IMG/VR virus record: IMGVR_UViG_3300020576_005251
Span: 32,001 to 96,000 of that record
Reading direction: 5' to 3' (one strand)
DNA from: a virus
Taxonomy: Duplodnaviria; Caudoviricetes
Length of the DNA: 64,000 nt
The stretch's first letter is position 1. Each line of letters starts with the position of its first letter. The position numbers and the translations under genes were made by a program. The notes beneath the pieces are model-generated. The model ran no database searches. It was not told the origin of the DNA and saw only the letters and a program-made list of their open reading frames with translations. Positions 2,107-46,672 of the stretch are shown piece after piece.

Positions 2107-2113
2107 GGAACCC

Positions 2114-17958: not shown

Positions 17959-18313
17959 GGGGCTTGATCCCCCAGGCTTCGATGCCCGACACCGGCTGCG
18001 GGGCGTCCGGGTCGAACGGGCGCGATGAGTGCGGCTGCGGACGCTGAGGGAGCGGGATCAGGTCGTCGGAGCTCCGTGGGTGGGCACGCTTGGGTTCGGG
18101 CAGTTCGGAGGGCGTCTTGACGACGATCGGCGTCTCGGTGATGCGAGGCACCTCGACGATGGGCGTTTCGCTGAGCGACACGCTGACCTCGACGATCGGG
18201 ATGGGGTCGTGGGCGATGCCCTCCGGCGCGATCTGCCCGGGGAACCGCTTGCGCAGATCCAGCCCGATCAGCTTCGCGATGTCTTCCCCTGAGTACTCGA
18301 TCTTCATCTTCAT
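17951..18313 (-). CDS. Hypothetical protein
   Basis: 120 aa, coupled (ATGA) to the helicase stop. Confidence 0.6.
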   Translation of the reverse strand: MKMKIEYSGEDIAKLIGLDLRKRFPGQIAPEGIAHDPIPIVEVSVSLSETPIVEVPRITETPIVVKTPSELPEPKRAHPRSSDDLIPLPQRPQPHSSRPFDPDAPQPVSGIEAWGIKPRG

Positions 18314-20286
18314 ACTTCTTCCACCTTCGCAATGGGTTTGGTGACTGAGGCCGCGTACTTGCAGCCCTTCCCGAATGGGACGATCTGTTCGTCATAGCAC
18401 GTGTCGATGCGGTCGCACGAGGTGCACGCGATCGCATCCGACATGGTGAGGCCGACGCTCCGCTTGAACCGGAACGACGCCTCGACAAAGCGGTCGGCAA
18501 CGACGCCGCTCTTCCTGGAGCTGAGCAGTCGGTAGACCGTCATCTTGCGCAACTGTCCCGGGCGGTTGTTCCGCTCCAAGGCTTGATCGTACTGGAGCGG
18601 CTTCCAGGGCAGAGAGTACACCATCGTGTAGTTCGCCTGCTGAAGATTGATGCCCACCGCAGCGCTGATGATGCCGATCAGCACGCGGCACTCCGGGTCT
18701 TCTCGGATCGCGGCTTCGATCAGTCCGGTCTTCCCAGATGTCGAGCCGTCGAGTCGAACGGTCTTGACACCCATGGACTTTGCGACGCGCTCCATGTCGT
18801 CGAGCTCGGGCCCGAAACACCCCCAGCACAGGACTTTATTGGTCGGGTCTTCCTGAAGGATCGTGCGCAAGAGATCCTCGAACACCTCCAGCTTGGGGTT
18901 CTCCACGTCCCGAATCGCCTTTGGCTTGATCGCCTTGGGGAACGGAACGCACTTCTTGGTGTACGGCTTGATGTCCTCTTCGACGCAGTGCTGCATGCGC
19001 GGACACGCATCGCACACCATCGTGTCCGCCTTGTCGTACATGAACCCCGACACCAGCTGCAACAGCTTGTTGACCCGGGCGGCGCCGTGGGGGACCTGGA
19101 AGAGCGGGTCGAGATCCGACCCCATACGCTCTTCGACGGGTTGCAGATACTGACCATCCGGGGTGATGGACGCGCGCATCGTCGCGACGAGTTCGTTGTA
19201 GCGTGCCCGCTGGTTTCGTCCCAGATCGTACGTGACATCCACGATCACCTGCTCGGGCAGATCCAGGCAATCTTTCTTCTTCATCCGGGTGACGACCGAG
19301 TCAACGACCGCGTTGATCTCCTGGAGGTTCTGGTAGCCGACCAGCACTTTGCGGGTGCCGCGCGCATTGAACACGTAGTAGCGCTCCTGAAACTTCGTCC
19401 AGGAGTAGGGCAGGAGCCAGGAGGCGAGAAACTTGATCTGCGCGTAGATCTTCCCCGGCGTCTCGCCGGGAGTGCCGGTGAGAGCAATACGCCGTACGGC
19501 GCGCGAGGCGAGCTCGAAAACTGCCGTCGTCGGCTTGCTCTCCGGGTTGCCCAGGACGTGGGACTCGTCCACGATGATCGTGTCGTAGTCCAGTTCGAGC
19601 AGGCGACTGCGCTCAGGGGCGTGGATAACATCGACGCCGATAAGCGGATCTCCTACCTCGAACTGCGCCTCCAGCTGACAGCGCGTGTACGTCGCGAGGA
19701 CGATGTCGGCCGTCTTCGCCGCCTCACACGCTTCGTCGGAGCCGTCCCATCTCACGACCTTCCACTGGTTGCGTGTCGCGCGGAGCGCTTCGCGGGCCCA
19801 GCCGTCCATGACCACAGGCGGACCGATCACGAGAGCACGCTTGAAGTGGCCATCGTGCCGCAAGACGCGCAGCCCGTCGATGGCGGTGCGCGTCTTGCCC
19901 GTGCCCATGTCCCACTGGAACCAGCATCGGGGCCAGTGTCGGATTCGTGCGATGCCCGCACGCTGGTAGCTGTACGGAGGGAAGTCCGACGAGAAGAAGT
20001 CGGGAGGCAAGTCCGCGAGGTCCGATGATGCCGGGTCCTCCCACTTGGTGGCTTCCGTCTGTAGATTCCGCTCGTGAGCCTGTGCGGCGGCGTCCTGGTG
20101 CAATACGCCGTATACGACGCGGAGGTCGCGCAGGACGCGCAACCCAAAAGGGTAGTACGCCGGGAACACCCACGCGTTGAGCTCGGGGATGTAGGTGCCG
20201 TGGCTCACGCGCTTGGTGCCGTCCTGAGGCTCGCCGCGCACCACGAACGCGGCGGCGCCTTGAATCATTGTGCCACTTACGATCAT
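18310..20286 (-). CDS. SNF2-family (SF2) helicase
   Basis: DMGTGKT, IVDESH, LTGTP, GINLQ, QALERNNRPGQ. An alternative start at 20319 is possible. Confidence 0.9.
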   Translation of the reverse strand: MIVSGTMIQGAAAFVVRGEPQDGTKRVSHGTYIPELNAWVFPAYYPFGLRVLRDLRVVYGVLHQDAAAQAHERNLQTEATKWEDPASSDLADLPPDFFSSDFPPYSYQRAGIARIRHWPRCWFQWDMGTGKTRTAIDGLRVLRHDGHFKRALVIGPPVVMDGWAREALRATRNQWKVVRWDGSDEACEAAKTADIVLATYTRCQLEAQFEVGDPLIGVDVIHAPERSRLLELDYDTIIVDESHVLGNPESKPTTAVFELASRAVRRIALTGTPGETPGKIYAQIKFLASWLLPYSWTKFQERYYVFNARGTRKVLVGYQNLQEINAVVDSVVTRMKKKDCLDLPEQVIVDVTYDLGRNQRARYNELVATMRASITPDGQYLQPVEERMGSDLDPLFQVPHGAARVNKLLQLVSGFMYDKADTMVCDACPRMQHCVEEDIKPYTKKCVPFPKAIKPKAIRDVENPKLEVFEDLLRTILQEDPTNKVLCWGCFGPELDDMERVAKSMGVKTVRLDGSTSGKTGLIEAAIREDPECRVLIGIISAAVGINLQQANYTMVYSLPWKPLQYDQALERNNRPGQLRKMTVYRLLSSRKSGVVADRFVEASFRFKRSVGLTMSDAIACTSCDRIDTCYDEQIVPFGKGCKYAASVTKPIAKVEEV

Positions 20287-20321
20287 GTGCCTATCCTTCC
20301 CTGGTGTACGACGAATCATTC

Positions 20322-22001
20322 ATGAGTTTTGGCGGGCCTCGGGGGAACACACACCCGAACCCGATGTACGACTACTTCACGGCGCTGACCCCCAGGCGCC
20401 TGAAGGAGCTCTTCAAGCTCGCGCAGTTCGTCGGCATCAACAGCGCCCACATCTACGGAGTCCTGCGCAAGTTCGGTGAGATCCCGATCACGCGCTTGGT
20501 GTTCGAGACCGTCGTCGAGACCGAGCTCAAGCAGCACGAGAAGCTCTTCAACGAGCAGCTTCGGCTGTGCGGCTTTCTGACGATGGCCTCGTTCGACCTC
20601 CAGCTGACCGGGAACTCCATCGTCACGATGTACGAACCGATTCAGCGTGACCTGATCTGCACTCGATGCCACACGCCAGAGAACATCGAGGCGGCGGACT
20701 ACTCGTTCAACCTCGACAAGACCGAGTTCCGTCACGACTGCCGCAAGTGCGGGGTGACGCGAGTCCTGTCGAAAGTGAAGGACACACAGCTCAAGGACTC
20801 CTCCAAGATCCGGCTGCTGCGGCTCGATCCTCTGCTCGTGGACATCGACCAGAACCGTACCACAGGGGAGACCGAGTACTACTACCAGATCCCGCGCGCC
20901 GATGTGGTCAAGGTGCGTGCAGGCGTCAAGCTCCACATCAATCACACGCCGATCGAAGTCCTCCAGGCCATGCGCAACGGCAAGGTCATCAAGCTGGACC
21001 CGTCGAACGTGTATCACATGCGTAAGCCTGCGCCTGCGGGGCTGGATGGCCAGTGGGGTCTCCCGCCGCTCGTGGCGGCAATCAAGCTGTTCATGTTCGC
21101 GGCAACTCTGCGGCGTGCGAACGAGGCGATCGCGCTGGAGTACATCACTCCCTTCCGCGTGATTCACCCCATGGCGGCGAGCGGTCAGGGCGACCCGATA
21201 ACGACTCTGAACCTGGGGCGTTGGAAGGATGAGATCCAGGAGAACATGCGGATGCACCGGAGAGATCCGCTGCGCGCGATGTTCGCCCCCATCCCCATCG
21301 GCGTGCAGAACATCGGCGGCGACGGGCGTACTCTCCTGACACTCGGCGAGCTACAAGAGGCCGAGAAGTCAATCATCCTCTCGCTGGGCGTTCCCTATGA
21401 GTTCGCGGTGGGCGGCATGGGGCGGCGCAGCGGCGAGGTCGATCTGCGGATGATCGAGAACCAGCTCCGCACGCACACCGAAGACCTCAACGGTCTGGTG
21501 GCGTGGGTCGAGCGACGTGCGACCACGTTCCTCGGCTGGAAGAGCGTTCCGACCAAGCTCGTGGAGTTCAAGCTCCTCGACGATCTGACCAACAAGCAGC
21601 TGCTCATCCAGCTCTGGCAGGCCGGATCGGTGAGCAAGACGACGGTCTCTCAGTCGGTGGACGTGGACCTCGCGCATGAGCGTGAACTCATCAAGCAGGA
21701 GACGCTGAGCGACGCACGCTCGCGCGCTGAGACGGAGATCTTGATCGCCAAGGAGCAGTCGTCGCTCTCCGCATCCGCGCAGCGCAAGGCGTTGATGGGT
21801 GGCGGCGGTACGGCGTACGATCAACAGCAGGTGTTCAGCATGAACGCCCCGCTGGCGCAAGAACTGGCTGCGCTGGATCCGAGTTCGCGAAAGAGTCGTT
21901 TGATCGCCCTGGAAAAGGAAGACCGGGTTGCTTACGCGGTCGTGATGGTAATCTTGGCGGATCTGGAGCGCGGAGGCGCCCAGCAAGGAGCGCCCGTATG
22001 A
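20322..22001 (+). CDS. Portal protein with a zinc-ribbon insertion
   Basis: About 560 aa, first gene of the virion operon; portal-like LTGNSIV, HMRKP...WGLPPL, LSLGVPYEF; CTRC...CRKC insert. Confidence 0.7.
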   Translation: MSFGGPRGNTHPNPMYDYFTALTPRRLKELFKLAQFVGINSAHIYGVLRKFGEIPITRLVFETVVETELKQHEKLFNEQLRLCGFLTMASFDLQLTGNSIVTMYEPIQRDLICTRCHTPENIEAADYSFNLDKTEFRHDCRKCGVTRVLSKVKDTQLKDSSKIRLLRLDPLLVDIDQNRTTGETEYYYQIPRADVVKVRAGVKLHINHTPIEVLQAMRNGKVIKLDPSNVYHMRKPAPAGLDGQWGLPPLVAAIKLFMFAATLRRANEAIALEYITPFRVIHPMAASGQGDPITTLNLGRWKDEIQENMRMHRRDPLRAMFAPIPIGVQNIGGDGRTLLTLGELQEAEKSIILSLGVPYEFAVGGMGRRSGEVDLRMIENQLRTHTEDLNGLVAWVERRATTFLGWKSVPTKLVEFKLLDDLTNKQLLIQLWQAGSVSKTTVSQSVDVDLAHERELIKQETLSDARSRAETEILIAKEQSSLSASAQRKALMGGGGTAYDQQQVFSMNAPLAQELAALDPSSRKSRLIALEKEDRVAYAVVMVILADLERGGAQQGAPV

Positions 22002-22610: not shown

Positions 22611-25600
22611 GTGTCAGAACCCACGCCTATCTTGACCGACGCCAGCGTGATCCGTCAGCGCATGCACGAGAAGTCGATCTCGGCGATCGCGTCGACCTTC
22701 CCGCTCACGCTCCGCAACGGGACGCTGGAGGTGCAAGACCTCAAGGTCGTCACGCGGCAGTTCAGCCCGATCGACCAGTACAACGCGCTGATGCGCGAAG
22801 GCACCCTTCAGGAAGCGGTGAAGGGCACCCTCGTCCTCAAGGACAAGGAGGGCAAGGTCGTCGACACGGCGAAGAACTTCACCCTCGTACACGTGCCCCA
22901 TCTGACCGAGCGTCACACGTTGATCATGGGCGGCAACGAGTATCAAGTCGCCAACCAGCTTCGGCGCAAGCCGGGCGTGTACACGGCGCGCGCCGACAAC
23001 GGCGAGCTGCGGGCGATCTTCAACCTGGGGCGCGGCAGCAACTTCAACCTGGGCTTCACACCCGACAAGGGCACCTTCCACGTCCAGCTGGGGACCTCCA
23101 ACATCCCGCTCTACCCCGTGCTCCGCGCGGCGGGCGTCAGCCACGAGACCATCGCCCACCACCTCGGCGACGCGGTGGCCAAGGCCAACCAGACCTACCA
23201 CGGCAAGGAGGAGGAACGCGCGACCGGGAAGCTCTACGCGAAGCTGGAGCACCCCGCGCTGTTCAACGCGAACCTCCCGCACGCGGAGAAGGTGGAGGCG
23301 ATCCGCAAGAAGTGGGACGTGACCACGCTCGACCCCCACGTGACGGAGGCGACTCTCGGTACGGCGTATTCAAAAGTCACCCCCGAGGCGCTGCTGACGG
23401 CGGCACGGAAGGTGCTCGATGTCCACGGCGGTCACAAGGCCACCGATGACACCGACGCGTTGACCTACAAGACCTTCCACTCGCTGGACGACTTTCTGCA
23501 CGAACGGATCAAGCTCACCGCGCGCGCCTGGGTGCCGAAGGCGAAGCTCGCCCTCGCGACCAAGGGCACGATTCACGAGGCGTTGCGCCCTGCGCCCTTC
23601 TCGGATGGCGTGCGAAAGTTCATCACGACCGGCTCGCTGGCGGCGGTGCCGACTGCGATCAACCCGCTCGAACTGATCGATCACGCGGTGAAGGTGACGA
23701 GCCTTGGAGAGGGTGGAATCCCCTCGGATCGAGCCATTCCGCTTGACGCGCGCATGATCCACAACACGCACTTCGGAGCACTGGATCCGATCCGTACGCC
23801 TGAGTGTTTTCCGCCTGACGTCGAAGTCTGCACTCAACGGGGGTGGGCGCGTTGGGACGATGTGAGTGACTCGGACGCGTTCCTGACGATGGCGGGGGAC
23901 CTCCGCGTATTCCAGCTCCCTGAGCGTATCGTGCGTGAGCCCTACGAAGGGCTCATGTGTCACATGACAGGTGAGCATATCGACTGCGTGGTCACACCGA
24001 ACCACCGTGTATACGGGCGTGCGACCGAGCTTGCAGATGACGCCTTCGTGCAAGCGTGGGAACTTCAGGGCGCGACCCAGTGGTACTTCCCTACGGAGGA
24101 CCCGAACTTCGACTCCGTGTATGAGAGCGCACTCAGCACCTCAGTACAGCCCTATCGCGGCATGGTCTACTGCGCGACCGTCCCTGGGGGGCTCCTCTAT
24201 GTCCGCCGAAACGGTTGTACGCCGTATTGGACCGGCAACTCCAGTCACTCCGGAGTGGACATTCGCGCCACCATCGCCGCCCACCGCGACGAGGCTGGCA
24301 ACCTCTACACCGTCGCCACGAACGTGAAGACGAAGCGTGAGGAGTTCCTGCGCGCCGGAGACCTGCGGAAGTACGTGGTGGCGTTCCCCGGCGAAGAGCT
24401 CAAGGGGACGGTCGACGCCTTCAAGAACGGGCGTGTCGAGCGCGTGCCTGCGAGCACGGTGACGCACCAAATCGCTCACACCTCGCACCTCTATTCCCCT
24501 GCGACCACACTCCTGCCGCTGATCCACGGCATGCAGGGCAACCGCGCGATCATGGCGTCGAAGATGGGCACCCAGGCGTTGCCGCTCATCGAGCGGGAAG
24601 CCCCCTTCGTGCAGTCGAAGAGCCACCTGCCGGGTGAGATCAGCTTCGAGGCGATGTACGGGCACATGATCGCGCCGAGGGCGCCGGTCAGTGGGAAGGT
24701 GGTGAAGATCGAGGATGGGTGGATTCACATTCGGCCGGAGGGGGTGAAGAAGGCGACACACGCGGATGTGCGACACATCTTCGTCACGGGTCATTCGGGC
24801 TCCGGGAAGTCGACCTACGCCAAGAGTCTGTCGTCTGAAACGGGACTACCCGTTCACCGGCTCGACGACGCCCCCGGGCTGTTGGCCGCGCGCAAGTTGG
24901 GGGACACACCAACCGCAGAACGCCTGTCGCGCGAGGCGGTCGACCGTAGTTTGACGCTGTCGGTACCGCACATCATCGAAGGCACGTCCGCGTTGTTGAC
25001 GCCGGATCGTATGGCAGGGCACCGCGTTGTCTTGATGGACGCCCCGCGCGAGCACATTCTCAACGCGAGACTCCAGCGCGAAGTGGCGCAGGCGGCATCA
25101 CGCGGGGTTCCCGAGGATGTGGGGCGGCGCCAAGCACACGGAGCCGGTCTGTACGACTACTACGCACCACACGTTGATGCCGTGCGGCGTCTGTCGAACG
25201 TCGAAGTTCGAGCGCCGGGGTATGTGCCTACCGCTAAAGAGGCGGCTGAGTTCGTGGCGTATGTCGAAAAGACCGCCGAAGACCGCCCCACCGTCAAGGT
25301 TCGCTCTTTCGGCCCGTTCACGTTCCACGTCGAGATCCCCAAGGGCGCCAAGCCCTTCGGCCACCCGTTCCCCTGCGACTACGGCTACCTCCCGGGGTAC
25401 GTCGGTCCCGACGGCGACTCCCTCGACTTCTGGGTGGGGTCGGACAAAGACGGCGCGTTCGTTTCCGTCGACACCGAGGAGCAGAACGCGAAGGGTGTGT
25501 GGGTCAAGCGGGACACGAAGTACGTCGTCGGGGTGCCAAGCAATGAGGTGCATCTCGTCCTCACGCAGATCGAGCGCAAGCCCAAGACCCGGTGCGTCAA

Positions 25601-28600
25601 CCGACGCGACTACGCGTCGTGGGACGCGCTGACCAAGAGCATCGCGCACTTCAAGGACGAGGACGATCAGGTCGAGAAGACCGCCGCGACAAAGGACGAC
25701 GGACTCGTCCGCGTGCCGTACAGCCAGAACTTCCCGTTCCCTTCGAAGACCAGTCTGAACCACACGCTGAGCGTCAAGCCCGGCGACACTGTGGTAGCTG
25801 GGCAGCGCATGGGCGATTCCAACTACACGAAGGACGGCGTCCTCGCGCTCGGGCGCAACCTCCGCGTGGCGTACGTCCCCCACTACGGCCTGAACTCGAA
25901 CGACGCCGTGGTGATCAGCGAGGCGTGCGCCAAGAAGCTCACGAGCGAGCACGTGTACCGCGAGGTGTTCTCCATCCCGGTCGGCATGGAGTTCAGCAAG
26001 GAGCGGCACCAGTTCTACTACGGGACGAAGTACAGCCCTGCGCAATACGGCGTACTGGACACGCATGGCGTGGTCAAGAAGGGGGTGCGGGTCAACCCGA
26101 AGGACCTCCTGGTCTGCGGACTCGTGAAGACCCAGGTTGTCGGCACCGATGCCATCCTGGGGCGCATCTCCAAGGCGCTCGCCCGCCCCTATCAGGAGGT
26201 CGCGCTCACCTGGAACCACGGCACTCCGGGTGAGGTGATCGACGTGGTCCGTACGGGATCCCAGATCGCGGTCCTGGTGAAGACCATCGAGCAGATGCAG
26301 GTGGGGGACAAGCTCGCGGGTCGCCACGGCAACAAGGGCGTCGTGGCGAAGATCCTCCCTGATCACGAGATGCTGAAGGACGAAGCGGGCAACACGATCG
26401 ACCTCCTCCTGACGAGCGCAGGCGTGATCTCGCGCATCAACCCCTCACAGGTGTTGGAGACCGCGCTGGGCAAGGTCGTTGAGAAGACGGGCAAGCCGAT
26501 CGTCTTCGACAACAACATGCCGAGGAACCTGGAAGCCTGGACCGCTGAGCAGCTCAAGAAGCACAACATCAAGGACAAGGAGCACCTCTACGACCCGGTG
26601 TTGAAGCGTCACATCAAGGGCCCGGACGGCGCGGGCGTGTTCGTCGGGCGCCAGTTCATCTACAAGCTGTTCAAGAGCACCGACACGAACTTCTCGGGGC
26701 ACGGTGTTGGGCCGTACGATCTCAATGAACAGCCCCTGAAGACCGGGGGCGAAGAGTCCGCCAAGGGTATCGGGAAGATGGAGTTCGACGCGTTGATCGC
26801 GCACAACGCGCGCAACTTCCTGCGCGAGGCGTCCGCGATCAAGGGGCAGAAGAACGACGAGTTCTGGCGGGCGATCCAGCTGGGCCTCCCGCTCCCTGCC
26901 GCGAAGTCCCCGTTCGCCTTCAAGAAGTTCGTGGGGATGCTGGAGGGCGCGGGGCTGAAGGTGGATCAGCGTGGCTCCAAGTTCCAGCTGCTGCCGCTCA
27001 CCGACAAGGACATCCTGGCGCGATCGACCGGCGAGATCAAGAAGCCGGAGACGCTCATCGCGAAGAACCTCAAGCCCGAGGCTGGGGGTCTGTTCGACCC
27101 GAGGCTCACCGGGGGGCTTGGTGGGACGTTGTATTCGCACATCGACCTCCACGAGCCCATCCCTCACCCGGTGTTCAAGGAGCCGGTGCGGCGCCTGCTC
27201 GGGCTCACGGAGAAGGGCTTCGACGAGAAGCTCCAGACGCACGGTGGCGCGTGGTTTCACAAGGAACTGAAGGCGCTCGACACCGACCAGAAGCTCAAGG
27301 ATCTGCACGCGCGCCTGAAGACCGCGAAGGGCGCAGACCTCAACGACACCGTCAAGCAGATCAAGTACCTCGACGCACTGAACGCTCACGGCTACAAGCC
27401 GCACGACGCGTACGTCGTATCGAAGGTGCCTGTGGTGCCTCCGGTGTTTCGACCGATCATCGCTCAGCCGAACAACCCTGGGGAGCTGATGATCGCAGAC
27501 GCCAACAAGCTGTACATGCACGTGATGGATTCGAACCACACGCTGAAGAACACAGCGCTGGAGTCCGACATCGGCAAGCACCGCCGTCAGATGTTCAACG
27601 CAGTGGCGGCGCTCTACGGCACAGAGGACGTGGAGAACGACGAGCTGCGCGGACAGAGCGTGAAGGGCTTCCTGTCGAACATCGCAGGTGTCGGCACGCC
27701 CAAGGGCGGGTTCTTTCAGCGCAAGGTGATCCGCAAGACCCAGGACGTGTCGGGCCGTGGCACGGCGGTGCCCGATCCGACCTTGGGCATGGACAACGTC
27801 GGCATCCCCGAGCAGATGCTCTGGCAGATGTACGACAAGCTGATCATCGCGCGCATGGTGCGTCAGGGCCACACGGCGCTCGAAGCCAAGGAGGCCGTAC
27901 TCAAGAAGACGCCCTCGGCGAAGGCGGCGTTCATGCAGGAGATCGGCGAGCGGCCGGTGATGATCAATCGGGCGCCGACGCTCCATCGGTGGTCGATCGT
28001 GTCGGCGTACGCCGTACCCGTGCAAGGGAAGACGATTCGGGTGAACCCGTTTATCGAGAAGGGGTTGAATCTTGACTACGACGGGGATAATCAAGATTCA
28101 ACTGTAATCTTGATTCTGGCAAAGCCGCCTTTTGGCGGTTGTCATAATCGTGGTTCATACCTTGACTTCGTTACTGACAGTGCTACAGTGGTACTCCCTG
28201 GAGACCTTCGTCTCCCTCTCATGGAGGATCACATGGCCGCACGCTTCCGTACCGAAGTCCCTGCCCTCATCAACCAAGAGCTCGTCCTCTGCGATCTCGC
28301 GAACTTCCCACACGGGGAGAAGGTCAGTCAGAATGGGCACATCTCCTTCTACGCCGTGCCGGAGAATGTGTCGGTTCTCGCTCTCGACGAGGCTACCGGG
28401 CGCATCTGTGTGCAGCACCCCACGCTCTGGTCCCACCATGCTCAACGGGAGCGCGTCATCATCACGCTCGGCTCCGAACGACAGATCTTCTCCGACGACG
28501 ATCCGCGCGCTGTCTACGGCCTGGATTCGAATCTGAACTACATCAGGCGGCGCCCCTCGGAGTCCGTGGGCGTCTTCGTACCCGTCAGCTACGGCGCTAT

Positions 28601-29897
28601 CGGCGATGGGGGCGGCGCCACACTCGACACCCTCCCGGCAACCGACAAGGCGCCAGCGTTCCTCCTGACTGAAGATGCCGGGCACCTGATCGGAATGTTG
28701 ATCGGCAACGGATGGGTGGAGCCCTATCGTCTGCGTCTCGCCGGGATGAACAAGGGGATCCAGGCGCAGTTCCGCGCCGCCCTGCCCTCACTGTTCCCTG
28801 GGGTACCGATCAAGTTCGTAGTCTATGGGCACGACGCGAGCGGTGGATTCGGGGACTCAGAGGTCACGTGCGCCACCAGTGAACCCGGCACGCTGTTGTC
28901 TTCTCGGTTCCAGGGTATGTTCGGTCATGGTGCTGAGAACAAGCACCTCCCTACGTGGTTCCTGCGTACGACGTACGCATTCCGTCGGGGGCTCCTGGCT
29001 GGCCTCATCGACACAGACGGGTCTGTGTCAGTCAGCCACGGCAAGAAGAAGCCGCAGTGGATGGTGAACTATTCCAGCCGAAGTGGGCGCCTCGCGCGAG
29101 AGATCGTACTGCTGGCTCAATCGCTGGGTTTGCGCGCGAAAGTCACTCCGGCTAAGACGCCGCTGGGTGAGCCTCACTACGTCGTCAACTTCTCCACAGT
29201 CGAGCTCGGCCGCTTCGGACCGCTCCCCCTGGTTCACACTGAGAAGTCAGTGAAGTTCCGGGAGTTTCAAGCAGACCCTCCGGAAGCCAACGCTTCGTAC
29301 AACGCAACGAACCTCCTGCCGGTACCTGCTACGCTCGCGAAGCAGCTCAGCCGCCTCTTCAAGAGCGGTGGTTCGGATTATGCGAAGTGGTACCAGTCTA
29401 TCAAGAAGGGTTACGTGGCGCGCGCATTCGCGGAGGAGACTCTGACACTACATCCCACTCTGCGCGAGACGGATGACGGACTGATGCGGCGCTGGATCGA
29501 GCTCGTTGACAACAAGACGGTACGCTGGGACCAAGTCACGGAGTTTCGGGAGACCGGCATCGTCGAAGACGGCTACGATCTCACGGTCCCCGGCTATGAG
29601 ACGTTCATGAACGTCGAAGGCGTCATTCTCTCCAACACCCTCCAAGTCCACGCCCCCGTCACCCACGACGCCATCGCCGACGCGAAGAAGATGACCCTGT
29701 CCAACATGCTGCTCGCGGACAACACGCGGAACAAGATCCTCGCGTTCCCGCAGCACGAAGCGATCATCGGCTTCACCCATGGCTCGAAGCTAGCCCCCTC
29801 GAACAAGCCCGTGCGCCACTTCAAGTCGATGGAGGAGGCCATCGCGGCTTACAAACGCGGAGAGCTCGCTGCGAACGACCCGATCGAGGTATCCTAG
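22611..29897 (+). CDS. rpoB/rpoC: Multisubunit RNA polymerase: beta fused to the N-terminal half of beta', with two inteins and two inserted enzyme domains
   Basis: Beta motifs QLRRKPGVY, HFGALDPIRTPE, NRAIMASKMGTQA, LALGRNLRVAY, NSNDAVVIS, GDKLAGRHGNKGVV, GVISRIN, GIGKME; beta' motifs GLFDP, PVVPPVFRP, SGRGTAVP, NRAPTLHR, catalytic NLDYDGD. Confidence 0.93.
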   Translation: MSEPTPILTDASVIRQRMHEKSISAIASTFPLTLRNGTLEVQDLKVVTRQFSPIDQYNALMREGTLQEAVKGTLVLKDKEGKVVDTAKNFTLVHVPHLTERHTLIMGGNEYQVANQLRRKPGVYTARADNGELRAIFNLGRGSNFNLGFTPDKGTFHVQLGTSNIPLYPVLRAAGVSHETIAHHLGDAVAKANQTYHGKEEERATGKLYAKLEHPALFNANLPHAEKVEAIRKKWDVTTLDPHVTEATLGTAYSKVTPEALLTAARKVLDVHGGHKATDDTDALTYKTFHSLDDFLHERIKLTARAWVPKAKLALATKGTIHEALRPAPFSDGVRKFITTGSLAAVPTAINPLELIDHAVKVTSLGEGGIPSDRAIPLDARMIHNTHFGALDPIRTPECFPPDVEVCTQRGWARWDDVSDSDAFLTMAGDLRVFQLPERIVREPYEGLMCHMTGEHIDCVVTPNHRVYGRATELADDAFVQAWELQGATQWYFPTEDPNFDSVYESALSTSVQPYRGMVYCATVPGGLLYVRRNGCTPYWTGNSSHSGVDIRATIAAHRDEAGNLYTVATNVKTKREEFLRAGDLRKYVVAFPGEELKGTVDAFKNGRVERVPASTVTHQIAHTSHLYSPATTLLPLIHGMQGNRAIMASKMGTQALPLIEREAPFVQSKSHLPGEISFEAMYGHMIAPRAPVSGKVVKIEDGWIHIRPEGVKKATHADVRHIFVTGHSGSGKSTYAKSLSSETGLPVHRLDDAPGLLAARKLGDTPTAERLSREAVDRSLTLSVPHIIEGTSALLTPDRMAGHRVVLMDAPREHILNARLQREVAQAASRGVPEDVGRRQAHGAGLYDYYAPHVDAVRRLSNVEVRAPGYVPTAKEAAEFVAYVEKTAEDRPTVKVRSFGPFTFHVEIPKGAKPFGHPFPCDYGYLPGYVGPDGDSLDFWVGSDKDGAFVSVDTEEQNAKGVWVKRDTKYVVGVPSNEVHLVLTQIERKPKTRCVNRRDYASWDALTKSIAHFKDEDDQVEKTAATKDDGLVRVPYSQNFPFPSKTSLNHTLSVKPGDTVVAGQRMGDSNYTKDGVLALGRNLRVAYVPHYGLNSNDAVVISEACAKKLTSEHVYREVFSIPVGMEFSKERHQFYYGTKYSPAQYGVLDTHGVVKKGVRVNPKDLLVCGLVKTQVVGTDAILGRISKALARPYQEVALTWNHGTPGEVIDVVRTGSQIAVLVKTIEQMQVGDKLAGRHGNKGVVAKILPDHEMLKDEAGNTIDLLLTSAGVISRINPSQVLETALGKVVEKTGKPIVFDNNMPRNLEAWTAEQLKKHNIKDKEHLYDPVLKRHIKGPDGAGVFVGRQFIYKLFKSTDTNFSGHGVGPYDLNEQPLKTGGEESAKGIGKMEFDALIAHNARNFLREASAIKGQKNDEFWRAIQLGLPLPAAKSPFAFKKFVGMLEGAGLKVDQRGSKFQLLPLTDKDILARSTGEIKKPETLIAKNLKPEAGGLFDPRLTGGLGGTLYSHIDLHEPIPHPVFKEPVRRLLGLTEKGFDEKLQTHGGAWFHKELKALDTDQKLKDLHARLKTAKGADLNDTVKQIKYLDALNAHGYKPHDAYVVSKVPVVPPVFRPIIAQPNNPGELMIADANKLYMHVMDSNHTLKNTALESDIGKHRRQMFNAVAALYGTEDVENDELRGQSVKGFLSNIAGVGTPKGGFFQRKVIRKTQDVSGRGTAVPDPTLGMDNVGIPEQMLWQMYDKLIIARMVRQGHTALEAKEAVLKKTPSAKAAFMQEIGERPVMINRAPTLHRWSIVSAYAVPVQGKTIRVNPFIEKGLNLDYDGDNQDSTVILILAKPPFGGCHNRGSYLDFVTDSATVVLPGDLRLPLMEDHMAARFRTEVPALINQELVLCDLANFPHGEKVSQNGHISFYAVPENVSVLALDEATGRICVQHPTLWSHHAQRERVIITLGSERQIFSDDDPRAVYGLDSNLNYIRRRPSESVGVFVPVSYGAIGDGGGATLDTLPATDKAPAFLLTEDAGHLIGMLIGNGWVEPYRLRLAGMNKGIQAQFRAALPSLFPGVPIKFVVYGHDASGGFGDSEVTCATSEPGTLLSSRFQGMFGHGAENKHLPTWFLRTTYAFRRGLLAGLIDTDGSVSVSHGKKKPQWMVNYSSRSGRLAREIVLLAQSLGLRAKVTPAKTPLGEPHYVVNFSTVELGRFGPLPLVHTEKSVKFREFQADPPEANASYNATNLLPVPATLAKQLSRLFKSGGSDYAKWYQSIKKGYVARAFAEETLTLHPTLRETDDGLMRRWIELVDNKTVRWDQVTEFRETGIVEDGYDLTVPGYETFMNVEGVILSNTLQVHAPVTHDAIADAKKMTLSNMLLADNTRNKILAFPQHEAIIGFTHGSKLAPSNKPVRHFKSMEEAIAAYKRGELAANDPIEVS
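23805..24239 (+). mobile_element. Mini-intein (145 aa, no endonuclease) in RNAP beta
   Basis: Begins with C after TPE; block B VTPNHR; block F VYCATVP; ends WTGN followed by Ser. Confidence 0.88.
28089..29636 (+). mobile_element. LAGLIDADG intein (about 516 aa) inserted directly after the catalytic DYDGD
   Basis: LIGMLIGNG and LLAGLIDTDG motifs; block F GYDLTVPG; ends ILSN followed by Thr. Removing it restores DYDGD-TLQVHAP (compare DFDGD-QMAVHVP). Confidence 0.85.
28162..28235 (+). promoter_or_regulatory. Sigma70-like promoter plus RBS and in-frame ATG inside the intein
   Basis: TTGACT-N16-TACAGT with TGn extension (28162-28189); GGAGG six nt before the in-frame ATG at 28233. Confidence 0.5.
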
Positions 29898-31889: not shown

Positions 31890-33689
31890 ATGGCCAAGAC
31901 GTTCGCGCAGCACCTGATCAACTCGACCCTCCCCGAGGGTTACAAGATGGACGGCCCGGTGACCAACCGTGGCCTCCACGATCACGTGGTCGACCTCGCG
32001 CGAAACGACCCGACCGCCTACGTCCGTACGGCCCTCGCGATCAAGCAGCGCGGCGATGAGCTCGCCACGCTCGAAGGCATCTCGGTGGGGCTCAAGGACA
32101 TCCGCCCCAACTACGTGGAGCGCGACGCGATCCTCAAGCCCGCGAAGGCGGCGTTCGAGAAGGCGAAGACTCCGGCTGAGCGCGAGAAGATCATCCTGGA
32201 GACGCAGGCAAAGATCATCGAGCACACCAAGCAACATCCTGGCTCGATGACACACATGGCGCTCTCCGGCGCGCGTGGCAACCCGGCGCAGCTGATGAAG
32301 ATCGTCTCGACCCCGCTCGCGTCCGTGCATCCTCGCGAGGGTCTGGTCAACCACTTCTTCGACAGGTCGTACGCCGAGGGGTTGACTCCCGCTCAGTACT
32401 GGCTCCACGGCCCTGAGGTGCGTGCGAACGAGGTGGCCGCGCGCATCTCGGTGTCAGAGCCGGGGGAGGTTGCGAAGGTCCTCGTCAACAACATGATCGC
32501 CAAGGTGATCACGCGGGCCGATTGCGGGACGCTCAACGGCATTCGCATGCGCACCGACGATCCGCACGTCATCGATCGCCACACCCAGGCGGACGCTGGC
32601 CTCGCTCGCAACACGCTCCTGACGCCGAGGGTCGTGCAGGATCTCCAGCGTCGCAAGGTCGACCACATCCTCGTGCGCTCGCCCATGACGTGTGGGGAGC
32701 CGCATGGGGTCTGCCAGATGTGTCAGGGCCTCAGCGAGAAGGGGCAGATCCACACCATCGGAACCCCGGTGGGGGTGCGCGCCGCACAAGCGATGGCGGA
32801 GCCGCTGACCCAGATGGCGCTCTCCTCGCGCCACGGCACCCTGACGGTCAAGGCGTCCACCCCAGACCTCGTCGGGCTGAAGGGCGTTCGGCAGCTCCTC
32901 GACATCCCGGAGGCATTCCTACACGAAGCCGTGCTCGCTCCCGTAGCAGGTGTCGTCACCAAGATCGAGCCTGCCCCTCAGGGCGGTCACTACGTGTGGG
33001 TCGGCCCCGAGAAGACCTACGTCAACCCGAAGCTCGCGATCCTGCACAAGGTAGGGGATGGTGTCGAGGCTGGCGACGCGCTCACCACGGGCGTCCCCCA
33101 CCCGGAGAAGGTGGTTCGGCACAAGGGCCTGGGCGCGGGGCGTGCGTACTTCGTGAACACGCTCCACCGCGTGTACAAGAAGGAGGGCGTCGACATCGAC
33201 AAGCGCCACCTGGAAGTGCTGGCGAAGTCGGACATCAACCACGTCAAGCTGCTCGACGTTGACCCCGAACACCCGCACCTGCTCAAGGGCGACGTGATCA
33301 ACTACAACGCGTTCCGCGACGCGTACGCAGACCACGTCGTCGACCTCGCACCCGAGAAGGCGGTGGGCCGACGCCTGGGGCGCGAAGTGCTCCATCACAC
33401 GGTCGGGACGTTGGTGACTCCATCTCTGGCGCGGGAGCTCAAGGCCGGAGGCGTTCACACCGTGCATGTGGCCGCGAACATGCCGAACGTCGAGTTCGTG
33501 ATGCGCCCGTTCACAATGAACCCGCTGCTCGACAGCGACTGGATGGCCCGCCTGTCGCACCGCTACCTGAAGGCGAGCATCGCCGACGCCGCCCACACAG
33601 GTGATGTCGCGGACATCCACACCACGCACCCCATCCCCGCCTATGCTTTCGGTGCCGAGTTCGGGCACGGGCCGGATGGGCGCTTCTGA
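31890..33689 (+). CDS. rpoC: RNA polymerase beta' C-terminal half
   Basis: SGARGN, EGLTPAQYW, bridge helix SEPGEVAKVL, DCGT, VRSPMTC...GVCQMC, trigger loop GVRAAQAMAEPLTQMALSSRH, DKRHLE. Confidence 0.92.
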   Translation: MAKTFAQHLINSTLPEGYKMDGPVTNRGLHDHVVDLARNDPTAYVRTALAIKQRGDELATLEGISVGLKDIRPNYVERDAILKPAKAAFEKAKTPAEREKIILETQAKIIEHTKQHPGSMTHMALSGARGNPAQLMKIVSTPLASVHPREGLVNHFFDRSYAEGLTPAQYWLHGPEVRANEVAARISVSEPGEVAKVLVNNMIAKVITRADCGTLNGIRMRTDDPHVIDRHTQADAGLARNTLLTPRVVQDLQRRKVDHILVRSPMTCGEPHGVCQMCQGLSEKGQIHTIGTPVGVRAAQAMAEPLTQMALSSRHGTLTVKASTPDLVGLKGVRQLLDIPEAFLHEAVLAPVAGVVTKIEPAPQGGHYVWVGPEKTYVNPKLAILHKVGDGVEAGDALTTGVPHPEKVVRHKGLGAGRAYFVNTLHRVYKKEGVDIDKRHLEVLAKSDINHVKLLDVDPEHPHLLKGDVINYNAFRDAYADHVVDLAPEKAVGRRLGREVLHHTVGTLVTPSLARELKAGGVHTVHVAANMPNVEFVMRPFTMNPLLDSDWMARLSHRYLKASIADAAHTGDVADIHTTHPIPAYAFGAEFGHGPDGRF

Positions 33690-34381: not shown

Positions 34382-34406
34382 ACTACCCATCACAGGAGAT
34401 CTCTCG

Positions 34407-36347: not shown

Positions 36348-36374
36348 CGAAAGGCATCGTACACTAGCGGTACG

Positions 36375-38915: not shown

Positions 38916-38916
38916 C

Positions 38917-39645: not shown

Positions 39646-39654
39646 ACTTACCTC

Positions 39655-41771: not shown

Positions 41772-41773
41772 AG

Positions 41774-42981: not shown

Positions 42982-42983
42982 CC

Positions 42984-44693: not shown

Positions 44694-44711
44694 CTACCCT
44701 TCGGAGAGACC

Positions 44712-45155
44712 ATGCGAATCAACGAACTGTTCGGCCAGACCGCCCCCGCGACCCCCAGCGCCGCGCCCGCGACGACGAAGGTGGCCTCGGACAACACCAA
44801 CGCCGCGATCAAGGCCGCTGTCGCGGAGGCCCTCGCGTCAAACGAGAAGACGGCCTCCGAGGGCTCCGCGCCTGAGGTCACGCTGCTCAAGCTCGCCCAG
44901 GACCTCGCCGCCCGCGAGAAGCTGGCGGACGTGAACCACGGCTACCGCGTGGGTGAGGCGATGTCGCGCGGCTTCCTCGACGGGATCGCCCGCGCCGAGA
45001 AGATCGCGGCGGCGCAGGAGGAGGGCGCCGCCAAGCTCGCCGCCGAGCAGGACGCCGCGTACCAGCGTGGCAGCGCCGAGGTGCTCAACGCCGCCCGCGA
45101 GCGTGGGGCGGAGCACTACCTCGTGGGCTACTCGATGTTCGAGGGCATGGTCTGA
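44712..45155 (+). CDS. Putative scaffold-like protein rich in K-x-A
   Basis: TKVAS, EKTAS, LKLAQ, EKLAD, EKIAA, AKLAA within 147 aa. Confidence 0.62.
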   Translation: MRINELFGQTAPATPSAAPATTKVASDNTNAAIKAAVAEALASNEKTASEGSAPEVTLLKLAQDLAAREKLADVNHGYRVGEAMSRGFLDGIARAEKIAAAQEEGAAKLAAEQDAAYQRGSAEVLNAARERGAEHYLVGYSMFEGMV

Positions 45156-46064: not shown

Positions 46065-46091
46065 CTACTGTTTTCTCAAGGAGCCCTGACC

Positions 46092-46616: not shown

Positions 46617-46672
46617 GACCCCGCAACCCCAAGAGCTGACCCAGAGCAAGAACAAGGAACAGGAGACCCAAG

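What the first reader, a model, noticed from the sequence alone, without database searches (positions are those of the whole stretch)
24747..25688. RNAP beta carries two passenger enzymes (P-loop kinase-like and pyrophosphatase-like) bracketed by K-x-A sites
Seen: about 310 aa are inserted between the beta barrel-hybrid strands (SGKVVKIEDGWIHIR ... LVRVPYSQNF). The order is VKKA | IFVTGHSGSGKST...LDD...IIEG (NMP-kinase/AAA_18-like) | VEKTA | VEIPKG...FPCDYGYLPG...DGDSLD (family I inorganic pyrophosphatase pattern) | VEKTAA. The kinase part has visibly more A/T-ending codons, suggesting recent gain. Inference: the RNAP is a carrier polyprotein whose cargo is released by the head protease, or stays tethered; a PPase would remove the PPi produced by transcription and a kinase could supply nucleotides on injection.
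Basis: partly seen in the sequence, partly recalled or inferred. Interest (0 to 1): 0.88.

Follow-up and report, generated by a model that had tools for sequence, protein, structure and literature searches.

The report
Enzyme cargo slot inside phage RNAP
A phage RNA polymerase whose relative in phage Arash is packed into the virus particle carries two complete small enzymes (a kinase-like one and a pyrophosphatase-like one) inside a surface loop, and related phages carry different or no passengers at that loop, always marked by a short motif that looks like a head-protease site.

Summary
ORF 22611-29897 encodes a 2428-aa fused RNAP beta-beta'N. Compared with phages Arash and D69, it has about 311 extra residues (aa 718-1028) at the tip of a beta hairpin that aligns with enterobacterial RpoB ~738-746.

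- **Folds.** The insert folds as two independent domains. One is a shikimate/gluconate-kinase-like P-loop kinase (pLDDT 90; Z 13-14). The other is an InPase, the minimal family-I pyrophosphatase of phage polyvalent proteins (pLDDT 87; Z 9-10). Catalytic motifs are conserved in both.
- **Age.** The kinase has GC3 0.72, like the two inteins, against 0.88-0.91 for the core and InPase. A 96-98% identical relative lacks exactly this module.
- **Variable cargo.** In 32 metagenomic proteins and 79 IMG/VR loci the same loop is empty or holds InPase, kinase (either order), two InPases or unknown modules.
- **Motif.** Every module border carries K-x-A. Most cargo-free relatives keep one K-T-A-A at the loop tip.
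- **Head link.** K-x-A is the most enriched i,i+2 residue pair in the head-gene block of this phage and of Arash, but not in tail genes.
- **Packaging.** The Arash homologue is the most abundant protein in virion mass spectrometry.

Cleavage, release and the enzyme substrates remain inferred. I class this as a new variant of the polyvalent-protein theme. Other first-stage notes on this genome had already flagged the K-x-A motif.

The parts
22611..29897 (+). Fused RNAP beta-beta'N gene (P0001, 2428 aa) that carries the insert
   Evidence: Pfam Rpb2_6 E 6e-39, plus Rpb1_2 and Rpb1_1. It is 36-37% identical to Arash gp206 and the D69 homologue. It is the only copy in the 172,885-bp genome.
24690..24743 (+). 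N-side hairpin strand SGKVVKIEDGWIHIRPEG (aa 694-711)
   Evidence: Conserved in Arash, D69 and all relatives. It aligns to RpoB ~720-737.
24744..24758 (+). First K-x-A site, VKKAT (aa 712-716)
   Evidence: Present in the sequence. It is at the same place as KKAED/EKTAA in relatives.
24762..25268 (+). P-loop kinase-like module (aa 718-886). Walker A GHSGSGKST sits at 24789-24815. It also has RLDD, HIIEG and lid arginines.
   Evidence: AAA_18 scores 28.1 bits (cut-off 29.4). The AF2 model has pLDDT 90.5. VIA Z is 13-13.8 to shikimate, gluconate and uridine kinases. Invariant residues are listed in A2. GC3 is 0.72. The module is absent from the 96-98% identical P0003 locus.
25233..25247 (+). K-x-A inside the kinase C-terminal helix region, AKEAA (aa 875-879)
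   Evidence: Conserved as GYVPTxKEA[AS] in all RNAP-borne kinase modules. It lies in a modelled helix, so it may not be accessible.
25266..25280 (+). Second K-x-A site between the modules, EKTAE (aa 886-890)
   Evidence: The residues have low pLDDT at the start of the InPase model.
25278..25673 (+). InPase module (aa 890-1021) with EIPKG, DYGYLPGYVGPDGDSLDFWVG and D-x-K-Y-V-V-G
   Evidence: PF18823 scores 21.1 bits here (cut-off 26.8) and up to 35.4 bits in orthologous modules. The AF2 model has pLDDT 87.2. All top Foldseek and VIA matches are family I pyrophosphatases, Z 9-9.8. GC3 is 0.91.
25671..25691 (+). Third K-x-A site, VEKTAAT (aa 1021-1027)
   Evidence: Model residues 134-145 have pLDDT below 50. 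The motif matches the K-T-A-A of cargo-free loops.
25695..25730 (+). C-side hairpin strand DDGLVRVPYSQN (aa 1029-1040)
   Evidence: Conserved in relatives. It aligns to RpoB ~746-757.
20268..22001 (+). Portal gene, two genes upstream of the RNAP
   Evidence: 28% identity over the full length to Arash portal gp204, E 7e-88. Gene order is the same as in Arash and D69.
31890..33689 (+). Separate gene for the C-terminal half of beta'
   Evidence: Pfam Rpb1_5 E 3e-16. phrog_25354 positions 614-1111.
42984..44693 (+). Candidate head maturation protease, with four K-[VL]-A-[ES] sites of its own
   Evidence: phrog_18299 E 7e-9. Homologues include Arash gp222 and Gordonia phage proteins annotated as capsid maturation protease. 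Its nearest Atlas clusters are Peptidase_S77/S78/S80 at score 0.90, which is a lead only. Sites are listed.
44712..45155 (+). 147-aa scaffold-like protein with five K-x-A sites
   Evidence: 5 observed against 0.15 expected. Its role as a scaffold is inferred from position and composition only.
46673..47605 (+). Candidate major capsid protein with DKQAAE at residue 29
   Evidence: GC3 is 0.93 and it lies after the protease and scaffold candidates. The site is listed. The capsid identity is inferred, because no family hit was found.

Best explanation
The insert is a cargo slot of the polyvalent-protein kind, built into a virion RNA polymerase.

The fused beta-beta'N subunit is made late, among head genes, and is probably packed into the capsid, as shown for its homologue in phage Arash. 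In this clade the tip of one surface hairpin of beta carries a short K-T-A-A motif. Independently folding enzyme modules have been recombined into that tip. InPase came first. In this lineage a P-loop kinase came recently. Each module kept a copy of the motif on both sides.

The same K-x-A motif is concentrated in the protease, a scaffold-like protein and internal head proteins. I therefore read it as the recognition site of the head maturation protease. On that reading the protease cuts the loop during head maturation. That would free the kinase and the InPase as separate enzymes inside the capsid and split beta into two chains. All of them would then enter the cell with the DNA.

Once inside, I expect the InPase to hydrolyse pyrophosphate or a nucleotide-linked diphosphate, and the kinase to phosphorylate a hydroxyl group on a nucleoside, sugar or nucleic-acid end. 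This would favour early transcription or blunt a nucleotide-based host response.

Shown here: the anatomy, the folds, the conserved catalytic residues, the cargo variation, the motif statistics and the recent gain of the kinase.
From the literature: virion packaging of the Arash homologue.
Inferred: cleavage, release, and both substrates.
For: 1. **Insertion point and single ORF.**
2. **Folds.** Both modules fold confidently on their own, while the linkers have low pLDDT. The kinase scores Z 13-13.8 to shikimate, gluconate and uridine kinases, and its nearest Atlas clusters are AAA_18/SKI. For the InPase, every top match is a family I pyrophosphatase, Z 9-9.8.
3. **Catalytic residues.** In the kinase, Walker A, D37, E75-G76, R105 and R108 are invariant over 14 modules down to 26% identity. 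In the InPase, E23, K26, Y39, D49, D51, D54, D83 and K85 are invariant or nearly so over 27 modules.
4. **Cargo varies at the same loop.**
   - Inserts range from 127 to 515 aa in 32 proteins.
   - InPase is present in all of them but one, and the kinase in seven.
   - Both module orders occur, as do two InPases in tandem and unknown modules.
   - Among IMG/VR loci, 22 of 79 carry an insert of 55 aa or more and 57 carry none or a short loop.
5. **Exchange by recombination.**
   - The P0003 locus lacks exactly the segment VKK|[...]EK|TAEDRP.
   - The P0002 locus has an extra 178-aa module flanked by an AEKKAED repeat and a duplicated HIRPE.
   - Kinase GC3 is 0.72 against 0.88-0.91 elsewhere.
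6. **K-x-A at borders.** It stands at every module border and is rare elsewhere. At least 40 of 58 cargo-free or short loops keep a K-x-[AS]-[ASEDGT] motif, mostly K-T-A-A, at the tip.
7. **K-x-A in head genes.**
   - In this phage's head block it is the top-ranked of all i,i+2 pairs: 57 observed against 21.5 expected, z 7.7.
   - In the Arash head block it is also top-ranked: 46 against 20.6, z 5.6.
   - It is not among the top pairs in the tail block.
   - For K-x-A-[ASEDG] the head block has 40 against 8.9, with 0 of 500 shuffles reaching that count.
8. **Gene position.** The gene lies between the portal and the protease candidate.
9. **Packaging.** Arash Gp206 gave 3516 spectra, the most of any virion protein, and the beta' subunit Gp216 was also detected (PMC10585845).
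10. **Prior description of InPase.** It was described as a virion-delivered module of phage polyvalent proteins and of portal fusions (PMC5512222). The best PDB sequence match of the InPase profile is a phage portal, 9b41_L.
11. **Same motif in other polyvalent proteins.** Non-RNAP polyvalent proteins that carry the same kinase show K-x-A about every 175 aa.
Against: - No direct evidence exists for cleavage at K-x-A in any phage of this clade. The protease assignment rests on weak profile hits, and the Pfam scan returned no family at E <= 0.01.
- The RNAP core shows no depletion of K-x-A (118 observed against 114 expected), so there is no sign of selection against cutting elsewhere.
- Arash, the only relative with virion data, has neither the loop motif nor cargo. 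Its preparation listed 116 proteins, including metabolic enzymes, so contamination is possible.
- Both modules score just below Pfam's cut-offs in this protein.
- The InPase lacks the hairpin with K29/E31/R43 and the C-terminal Y141/K142 region of canonical pyrophosphatases, so PPi hydrolysis is not assured.
- The kinase substrate is unknown.
- Cutting the loop would split beta about 70 residues before the catalytic NFEDS-equivalent segment. Whether that is tolerated was not tested.
Confidence: 0.6

Rival explanations
1. Tethered accessory domains. The modules are never cut out. They stay attached to the beta hairpin and act in cis on the transcribing polymerase: the InPase pulls the reaction forward by destroying PPi, and the kinase acts on a nucleotide or on the RNA 5' end. 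On this reading K-x-A is a flexible-linker, recombination-joint or capsid-docking motif rather than a cleavage site.
For: - The genome has only one RNAP set, so the same enzyme probably also serves late transcription, where a tethered helper could be useful.
- Indel borders fall exactly in the repeated linker codons, and a linker repeat flanks module X, as expected for recombination joints.
- N4 virion RNAP is packaged unprocessed (PMC5512222).
- AR9-like phages have an HD phosphohydrolase permanently fused to the beta C-part (PMC7824862).
- Arash Gp206 was recovered with 100% peptide coverage.
Against: - The motif is the most enriched residue pair in scaffold-like, protease and internal head proteins in two distant phages. 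A pure RNAP linker or recombination scar does not explain that.
- Several head-block proteins have it after a short N-terminal leader, the usual layout of propeptide removal.
- Cargo-free loops keep K-T-A-A while their neighbouring residues vary.
Confidence: 0.27
2. Neutral or selfish passenger. The loop simply tolerates insertions. The modules are hitch-hiking or decaying domains with no role in infection, comparable to the two inteins in the same gene.
For: - Kinase GC3 equals that of the inteins.
- Cargo is patchy and absent from most relatives.
- Both modules score below Pfam cut-offs here.
Against: - Catalytic motifs are invariant across modules down to 26-33% identity.
- The InPase has core-like codon usage, which argues for long residence under selection.
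- The same two modules recur in many unrelated multidomain phage proteins.
- The Pfam scan listed no intein or homing-endonuclease family over aa 700-1040 at E <= 1.
Confidence: 0.06
3. Assembly or annotation artefact: a chimeric contig or a mis-joined ORF creates an apparent fusion.
For: The record is a metagenome-derived viral contig.
Against: - The ORF is uninterrupted.
- The same architecture appears in independent assemblies from ENA, JGI and Logan and in IMG/VR loci.
- The flanks are colinear with RpoB.
Confidence: 0.01

Closest known systems
Polyvalent proteins of phages and conjugative elements, including their InPase domain (Iyer, Burroughs, Anand, de Souza, Aravind 2017, PMC5512222)
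   Same: Several unrelated effector domains sit in one virion-associated polypeptide. The domains are shuffled in a mosaic pattern. The InPase is the minimal family-I pyrophosphatase that lacks the strand 1-2 hairpin. The authors proposed that it clears PPi for early transcription or acts on nucleotide-like substrates. They also noted InPase association with NUDIX and P-loop (TmrB) proteins.
   Different: That paper describes end-to-end domain strings and only N4-type single-subunit RNAP modules. Here the modules are nested inside a loop of a multisubunit-type beta subunit and are punctuated by a conserved K-x-A motif, and the host protein is the polymerase itself. In the passages I retrieved with my search terms, processing is linked to metallopeptidase domains. 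I did not check whether the paper also considers a head protease.
Virion-packaged multisubunit RNAPs of large phages (phiKZ/AR9 type); the Arash RNAP is the nearest characterised relative
   Same: These are beta/beta'-type polymerases encoded by the phage and found in virions (Arash Gp206 and Gp216, PMC10585845). In AR9-like phages the beta C-part is fused to an active HD phosphohydrolase (PMC7824862). From my own recall, phiKZ virion RNAP subunits are trimmed by the head protease gp175 (Thomas et al. 2012). I did not check this here.
   Different: In phiKZ and AR9, beta and beta' are split at the gene level, and the extra phosphohydrolase is a terminal fusion. Here beta and beta'N are fused, the genome has a single RNAP set, and the extra enzymes lie in an internal loop with variable content.
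Portal-InPase fusions (BcepF1 portal, cited in PMC5512222; PDB 9b41 chain L, 'gp19 Portal')
   Same: The same InPase family is attached to a head component. The DYG...DGD..D motif is conserved.
   Different: Those are C-terminal fusions to the portal, not insertions in an RNAP. No flanking K-x-A was examined.
Head-protease cleavage codes (T4 gp21 L/I-x-E, phiKZ gp175 S/A/G-x-E, herpesvirus assemblin V/L-x-A|S; all from my recall)
   Same: Each is a short motif that is over-represented in scaffold, protease and internal head proteins and often follows an N-terminal leader. The x-A followed by S/A resembles the assemblin site.
   Different: I know of no published K-x-A specificity. Cleavage is not shown for this clade.
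Lineage-specific insertions of bacterial RNAP beta (for example E. coli SI1 and SI2; from my recall of Lane and Darst 2010)
   Same: These are large insertions in surface loops of beta that leave the core intact.
   Different: Those insertions are repeats of beta-barrel motifs with no enzyme similarity and are fixed within a lineage. Here the inserts are complete enzyme folds that differ between close relatives.

Membership tests
InPase (Pfam PF18823; Iyer et al. 2017) | Score at or above Pfam's gathering cut-off (26.8 bits) | tested here: inconclusive
   P0001's module scores 21.1 bits, E 3e-4. Orthologous modules at the same loop score 27.6-35.4 bits. The insert also matches P0043 and P0045, whose InPase domains score 141-145 bits.
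InPase (Pfam PF18823; Iyer et al. 2017) | Pyrophosphatase-type OB-fold core with conserved acidic, metal-binding residues | tested here: met
   The AF2 model has pLDDT 87. VIA Z is 9-9.8 over 104-117 residues, to family I pyrophosphatases only. E23, D49, D51, D54 and D83 are invariant or nearly so in 27 modules.
InPase (Pfam PF18823; Iyer et al. 2017) | Lacks the beta hairpin between strands 1 and 2 that canonical enzymes have | tested here: met
   The profile alignment to M. leprae PPase opens a 16-residue gap between EIPKG and DYG. The domain is ~130 aa against ~175 aa for canonical enzymes.
Canonical family I inorganic pyrophosphatase (PF00719) | Pfam cut-off of 23.5 bits and the full set of PPi-binding residues (K29, R43, Y141, K142; E. 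coli numbering from my recall) | tested here: not met
   The score is 14.2 bits. The hairpin that carries K29/E31/R43 is absent. No equivalent of the C-terminal Y-K pair was seen in A3.
AAA_18 / shikimate-gluconate-kinase-like P-loop kinases | Pfam AAA_18 cut-off of 29.4 bits | tested here: inconclusive
   P0001's module scores 28.1 bits. Relatives score 29.8 (P0005) and 30.6 (P0015).
AAA_18 / shikimate-gluconate-kinase-like P-loop kinases | P-loop kinase fold with Walker A, an Asp after strand 2 and a lid with arginines | tested here: met
   pLDDT is 90.5. Z is 13-13.8 over 141-162 residues. GHSGxGK[ST]T, D37, E75-G76, R105 and R108 are invariant.
Shikimate kinase proper (PF01202) | Family cut-off of 22.1 bits and shikimate-binding residues | tested here: not met
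   The score is 14.5 bits. Only the fold is shared. Shikimate-site residues were not examined.
   Adenylate kinases appear among the fold matches at Z ~12.5 and at profile E ~2e-4, but below shikimate and gluconate kinases. NMP-site residues were not examined.
Polyvalent protein (Iyer et al. 2017) | Two or more unrelated effector domains in one polypeptide, with mosaic shuffling among relatives | tested here: met
   The kinase and InPase sit inside the RNAP. Among relatives the order swaps, modules are duplicated and unknown modules appear.
Polyvalent protein (Iyer et al. 2017) | Encoded among late or virion genes and delivered with the DNA | tested here: inconclusive
   The gene lies between the portal and the protease candidate. 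Virion presence is shown only for the Arash homologue (PMC10585845). Delivery cannot be tested here.
Intein | Hint splicing blocks and nucleophiles at both junctions | tested here: not met
   The Pfam scan listed no intein or Hint family over aa 700-1040 at E <= 1. The junctions read KKA|THA and ATK|DDG. By contrast, aa 399-543 and 1827-2342 of the same ORF do look like inteins.
Head-protease substrate | Cleavage at the motif by the phage's maturation protease | not testable with these tools
   Only statistics are available: motif enrichment in head-block proteins and low-confidence, probably flexible linkers at the sites.

The most novel reading that the evidence does not exclude
In this whole RNAP clade the head protease may cut the beta hairpin at K-T-A-A whether or not cargo is present. 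The virion polymerase would then be matured into a split enzyme by proteolysis. The cleavage loop would have been co-opted as a general docking site, from which any enzyme module recombined into it is packaged, excised and injected. The K-x-A-punctuated polyvalent proteins of other phages would be true polyproteins processed by the same kind of protease.
Probability: 0.35. Interest if true: 0.85.

Novelty: new variant of a known kind. Interest (0 to 1): 0.68.

Why it matters
How phages load enzymes into capsids for delivery is poorly understood outside T4, P1, N4 and phiKZ. This finding would add several things.

- **A compact rule.** A single surface loop of an abundant packaged protein, marked by a short motif, accepts interchangeable enzyme modules. 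That gives a testable sequence code (K-x-A) for packaging or processing across a widespread, mostly uncultured phage clade.
- **A link between two themes.** It connects the polyvalent-protein concept with multisubunit virion RNAPs.
- **A route to function.** It offers a natural scaffold for finding out what InPase and its partner kinase do at the first minutes of infection.
- **A possible new kind of RNAP maturation.** If the loop is cut even in cargo-free relatives, this would be an RNAP matured by proteolysis.

Tried and rejected
- **Stand-alone relatives.** Word-index searches for stand-alone relatives of each module found one protein for the kinase and none for the InPase. The exhaustive search showed that both modules live mostly inside large multidomain proteins.
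- **Arash kinase and pyrophosphatase.** Arash's separately encoded dNMP kinase (gp19) and pyrophosphatase (gp23) were both detected in virions. I tested them as possible unfused counterparts. They show no similarity to the modules, so I dropped the idea.
- **Site avoidance.** I looked for depletion of K-x-A in the RNAP core as a sign of selection against cutting. None was found (118 against 114 expected).
- **Co-variation.** I hoped to show that Arash lacks both the loop motif and the head-block enrichment. Arash does have the enrichment, so the test was uninformative for the loop, although it strengthens the motif itself.
- **Family hits for head genes.** The Pfam scan (E <= 0.01) listed nothing for the protease, portal, capsid and scaffold candidates. 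PHROGs gave only the protease hit.
- **Arash supplement.** It holds no peptide-level data, so semi-tryptic termini could not be examined.
- **Intein reading.** I rejected an intein reading of the insert.
- **Kinase substrate.** It could not be narrowed beyond shikimate/gluconate/uridine-kinase-like.

Full report
**1. What is at the coordinates**

The window holds a single long ORF, 22611-29897 on the + strand, encoding 2428 aa (P0001). Pfam identifies it as an RNA polymerase beta subunit fused to the N-terminal half of beta' (Rpb2_6 E 6e-39, Rpb1_2, Rpb1_1).

The nearest named relatives are Salmonella phage Arash gp206 (1525 aa) and the Vibrio phage D69 homologue, at 36-37% identity. In both, the gene lies two genes downstream of the portal gene. 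The same order holds here. ORF 20268-22001 is 28% identical over its full length to the Arash portal (E 7e-88). The C-terminal half of beta' is a separate gene at 31890-33689.

The window belongs to a 172,885-bp viral record judged complete, and it has only this one RNAP set.

Against Arash and D69, P0001 has three large extra segments:
- a mini-intein-like segment, aa 399-543;
- the segment under study, aa 718-1028;
- a LAGLIDADG intein-like segment, aa 1827-2342.

The finding's range, 24747-25688, is K713 to A1026, and all quoted strings are present in the stated order. With the insert removed, the flanks align colinearly with Salmonella RpoB 676-833 (E 1e-11). The insertion therefore sits at the tip of the hairpin at RpoB ~738-746, about 70 residues before the NFEDS segment.

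**2. The two passengers are real enzyme folds**

*Profile searches.* Sequence profiles alone are suggestive. AAA_18 scores 28.1 bits against a cut-off of 29.4. InPase PF18823 scores 21.1 bits against 26.8.

*Structure models.* Each module was modelled from an alignment of its relatives, and each gave a confident compact domain. The kinase model has pLDDT 90.5 and the InPase model 87.2. Confidence is low only in the linkers that carry EKTAE and VEKTAAT.

*Kinase fold.* The kinase model matches shikimate, gluconate, uridine-cytidine and adenylate kinases, with VIA Z 13-13.8 over 141-162 residues. Its nearest predicted-structure clusters are AAA_18 and shikimate-kinase-like.

*Kinase residues.* Across 14 modules, down to 26% identity, the following are invariant:
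- the Walker A GHSGxGK[ST]T;
- an Asp about 19 residues after the P-loop lysine;
- a P-H-[IV]-x-E-G strand;
- two lid arginines.

An Asp at that position serves as the base, or binds the substrate hydroxyl, in shikimate kinase, chloramphenicol phosphotransferase and T4 polynucleotide kinase (this is my recall). I therefore lean towards a hydroxyl kinase rather than an NMP kinase. The substrate remains open.

*InPase fold.* Among solved structures the InPase model matches only family I pyrophosphatases, with Z 9-9.8.

*InPase residues.* Across 27 modules the EI-x-KG, DYG, GPDGDSLDF and D-x-K-[YF] positions are invariant or nearly so. The module lacks the hairpin between the first two strands. 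That is the feature by which Iyer et al. (PMC5512222) set apart the InPase domains of phage polyvalent proteins.

*What was already known about InPase.* Those authors had already proposed that InPase is packed into virions. They suggested that it either clears PPi for early transcription or acts on a nucleotide-like substrate. They also noted portal-InPase fusions. The best PDB sequence match of my InPase profile is indeed a phage portal, 9b41 chain L.

**3. The loop is a variable cargo slot**

*Metagenomic proteins.* A search restricted to long proteins found 31 metagenomic fused RNAPs with an insert at this same loop, ranging from 127 to 515 aa. Their domain content is as follows:
- InPase is present in all but one (P0015, which has the kinase only).
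- The kinase is present in seven.
- The order is kinase then InPase in P0001, P0002 and P0005, and InPase then kinase in P0006-P0008.
- P0019 has two InPases in tandem.
- Several carry modules of unknown family.

*IMG/VR survey.* A survey of IMG/VR with a core alignment gave 79 usable loci. Of these, 57 have no insert or a short loop (0-25 aa) and 22 have 55 aa or more. Seventeen of the 22 have a single InPase. One has an unknown module plus InPase plus kinase. Five hold unrecognised modules of about 55-120 aa; one of these, L016, contains a stop.

*Recent gain of the kinase.* Its GC3 is 0.72. That equals both inteins and lies in the 6th percentile of windows in the ORF. The core is at 0.88-0.90 and the InPase at 0.91.

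*DNA-level evidence.* The P0003 locus is 96-98% identical in the flanks and in the InPase, and it lacks exactly the segment between VKK| and |TAEDRP. The P0002 locus has an additional 178-aa module bounded by an imperfect AEKKAED-coding direct repeat and by a duplicated HIRPE piece of the hairpin. Both patterns point to cassette exchange by recombination in the repeated linker codons.

**4. The K-x-A motif**

*At module borders.* In all 32 proteins a K-x-A-[ASED] motif stands at essentially every module border and is rare elsewhere. Summed over the family, there are 110 sites in 8,348 insert residues (28 expected from composition) and 118 in 55,898 core residues (114 expected).

*In cargo-free loops.* The key new observation is that cargo-free relatives keep the motif. 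At least 40 of 58 empty or short loops have a K-x-[AS]-[ASEDGT] motif at the tip. It is mostly K-T-A-A, as in IRPDKEKTAAAGPTLIKVPY, while the neighbouring loop residues vary. Only the most divergent members, together with Arash and D69, lack it. The cargo therefore sits inside a pre-existing motif-bearing loop, and each inserted module has a copy on both sides.

*In head proteins of this phage.* K-x-A-[ASEDG] occurs 40 times in the head-gene block 34245-47605, against 8.9 expected, and none of 500 shuffles reached that count. It is at expectation in the replication genes (14 against 9.2) and in the tail genes (5 against 4.2).

*Unbiased scan.* In a scan of all i,i+2 residue pairs, KxA ranks first in the head block of this phage (57 against 21.5, z 7.7). 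It also ranks first in the head block of Arash (46 against 20.6, z 5.6). It does not appear among the top pairs of the tail block.

*Which proteins carry it.* The sites cluster in the protease candidate (four sites), a 147-aa scaffold-like protein (five) and large internal proteins. They also follow short N-terminal leaders in the capsid candidate (DKQAAE at residue 29) and in two small proteins next to the RNAP.

*The protease candidate.* It matches phrog_18299 'head maturation protease' (E 7e-9). It has homologues in Arash, in D69, and in Gordonia phage proteins annotated as capsid maturation protease; 209 Mycobacterium phage records also match. By language-model features it lies nearest to Peptidase_S77/S78/S80 clusters. 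That score is a lead only.

*Beyond the RNAP.* Non-RNAP polyvalent proteins that share the kinase show the motif about every 175 residues.

**5. Packaging**

Virion mass spectrometry of Arash found Gp206, the RNAP homologue, to be the most abundantly detected protein (3516 spectra, 128 unique peptides). The beta' subunit Gp216 was also present (PMC10585845). Two cautions apply. That preparation listed 116 proteins, including metabolic enzymes. And Arash itself has neither cargo nor the loop motif.

**6. Interpretation**

The best reading is a polyvalent-protein-type cargo slot nested in a virion RNAP. The modules are recombined into a motif-bearing surface loop and probably released by the head protease at K-x-A. 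That cut would also split beta.

- *Shown:* the anatomy, the folds, the conserved residues, the cargo variability, the motif statistics and the recent gain of the kinase.
- *Inferred:* packaging of this particular protein, cleavage, release, and the biochemical roles.

The main rival is that the modules stay tethered and act in cis, with K-x-A serving as a linker, docking or recombination motif. That rival explains the indel borders. It also fits the single RNAP set, which presumably works late in infection as well. It does not explain why the motif is the top-enriched residue pair in scaffold-like, protease and internal head proteins of two distant phages. A neutral passenger and an assembly artefact are both unlikely.

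**7. Comparison and novelty**

Already known:
- InPase as a virion-delivered module (PMC5512222);
- phage RNAP subunits fused to a phosphohydrolase, as in the AR9-type HD fusion (PMC7824862);
- virion multisubunit RNAPs.

Apparently not described in the literature I could search:
- nesting of interchangeable enzyme modules in one beta hairpin of a multisubunit-type RNAP;
- the conserved K-x-A punctuation, including its presence in the empty loops;
- the link between that motif and the head-gene block.

I class this as a new variant of a known kind. Other first-stage notes on this genome had already flagged the K-x-A motif. I tested it independently here.

Noticed in passing
window 28089-29636 (aa 1827-2342 of P0001): A LAGLIDADG intein-like insert lies directly after the catalytic DYDGD. 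It begins with Asn (NQDSTVIL...), not Cys, Ser or Ala, and ends SN|T. Removing it restores DYDGD-TLQVHAP. Pfam hits are LAGLIDADG_3, Hom_end and Intein_splicing. GC3 is 0.72. How, or whether, it splices is unclear.
   Followed up: partly
window 23805-24239 (aa 399-543 of P0001): A mini-intein-like insert (TPE|CFPP...WTGN|SS) is absent from Arash and D69. GC3 is 0.72. Pfam does not flag it. phrog_85 ('thymidylate synthase') matches aa 397-472, probably through an intein in that family.
   Followed up: partly
outside the window: G000:C1 about 97260-98543, minus strand (L011:580-1863, P0183): The genome has a second InPase (PF18823, 41.4 bits). It sits at the N-terminus of a 427-aa protein and is followed by VMEKDAG and a long Pro/Ala/Gln-rich region. 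This may be another packaged InPase with a K-x-A after the domain.
   Followed up: partly
window 2051-3115 (+): A 354-aa ORF far from the head block has six K-x-A-[ASEDG] sites against 0.6 expected. No family hit was found. It may be another packaged or processed protein.
   Followed up: no
L005:8038-8640 (P0002 aa ~701-880): A 178-aa module of unknown family precedes the kinase in the closest relative that has the kinase. It is flanked by an AEKKAED repeat and a duplicated HIRPE.
   Followed up: partly
IMG/VR loci L016, L056, L061, L077, L087 (insert just upstream of position 3200 in each): Inserts of about 55-120 aa at the same RNAP loop match neither the kinase nor the InPase profile. L016 contains a stop. 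All still have K-x-A at a border. They are unknown cargo types.
   Followed up: no
L013:10001-15127 (P0035) and proteins P0020, P0021, P0030: Polyvalent proteins of 1700-2200 aa from other phages carry two copies of the same kinase plus NUDIX and PAP2 hits. They have K-x-A-[ASE] about every 175 residues, which looks like a polyprotein layout. Other carriers combine the kinase with the LigD 3'-phosphoesterase domain (P0041, P0046). That pairing resembles an end-healing kinase plus phosphatase.
   Followed up: partly
window 18310-20319 (-) and 16324-17508 (-): An SNF2-type helicase and a ParB-like gene lie directly upstream of the portal-RNAP block, and this arrangement is conserved in the relatives' contigs.
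   Followed up: no
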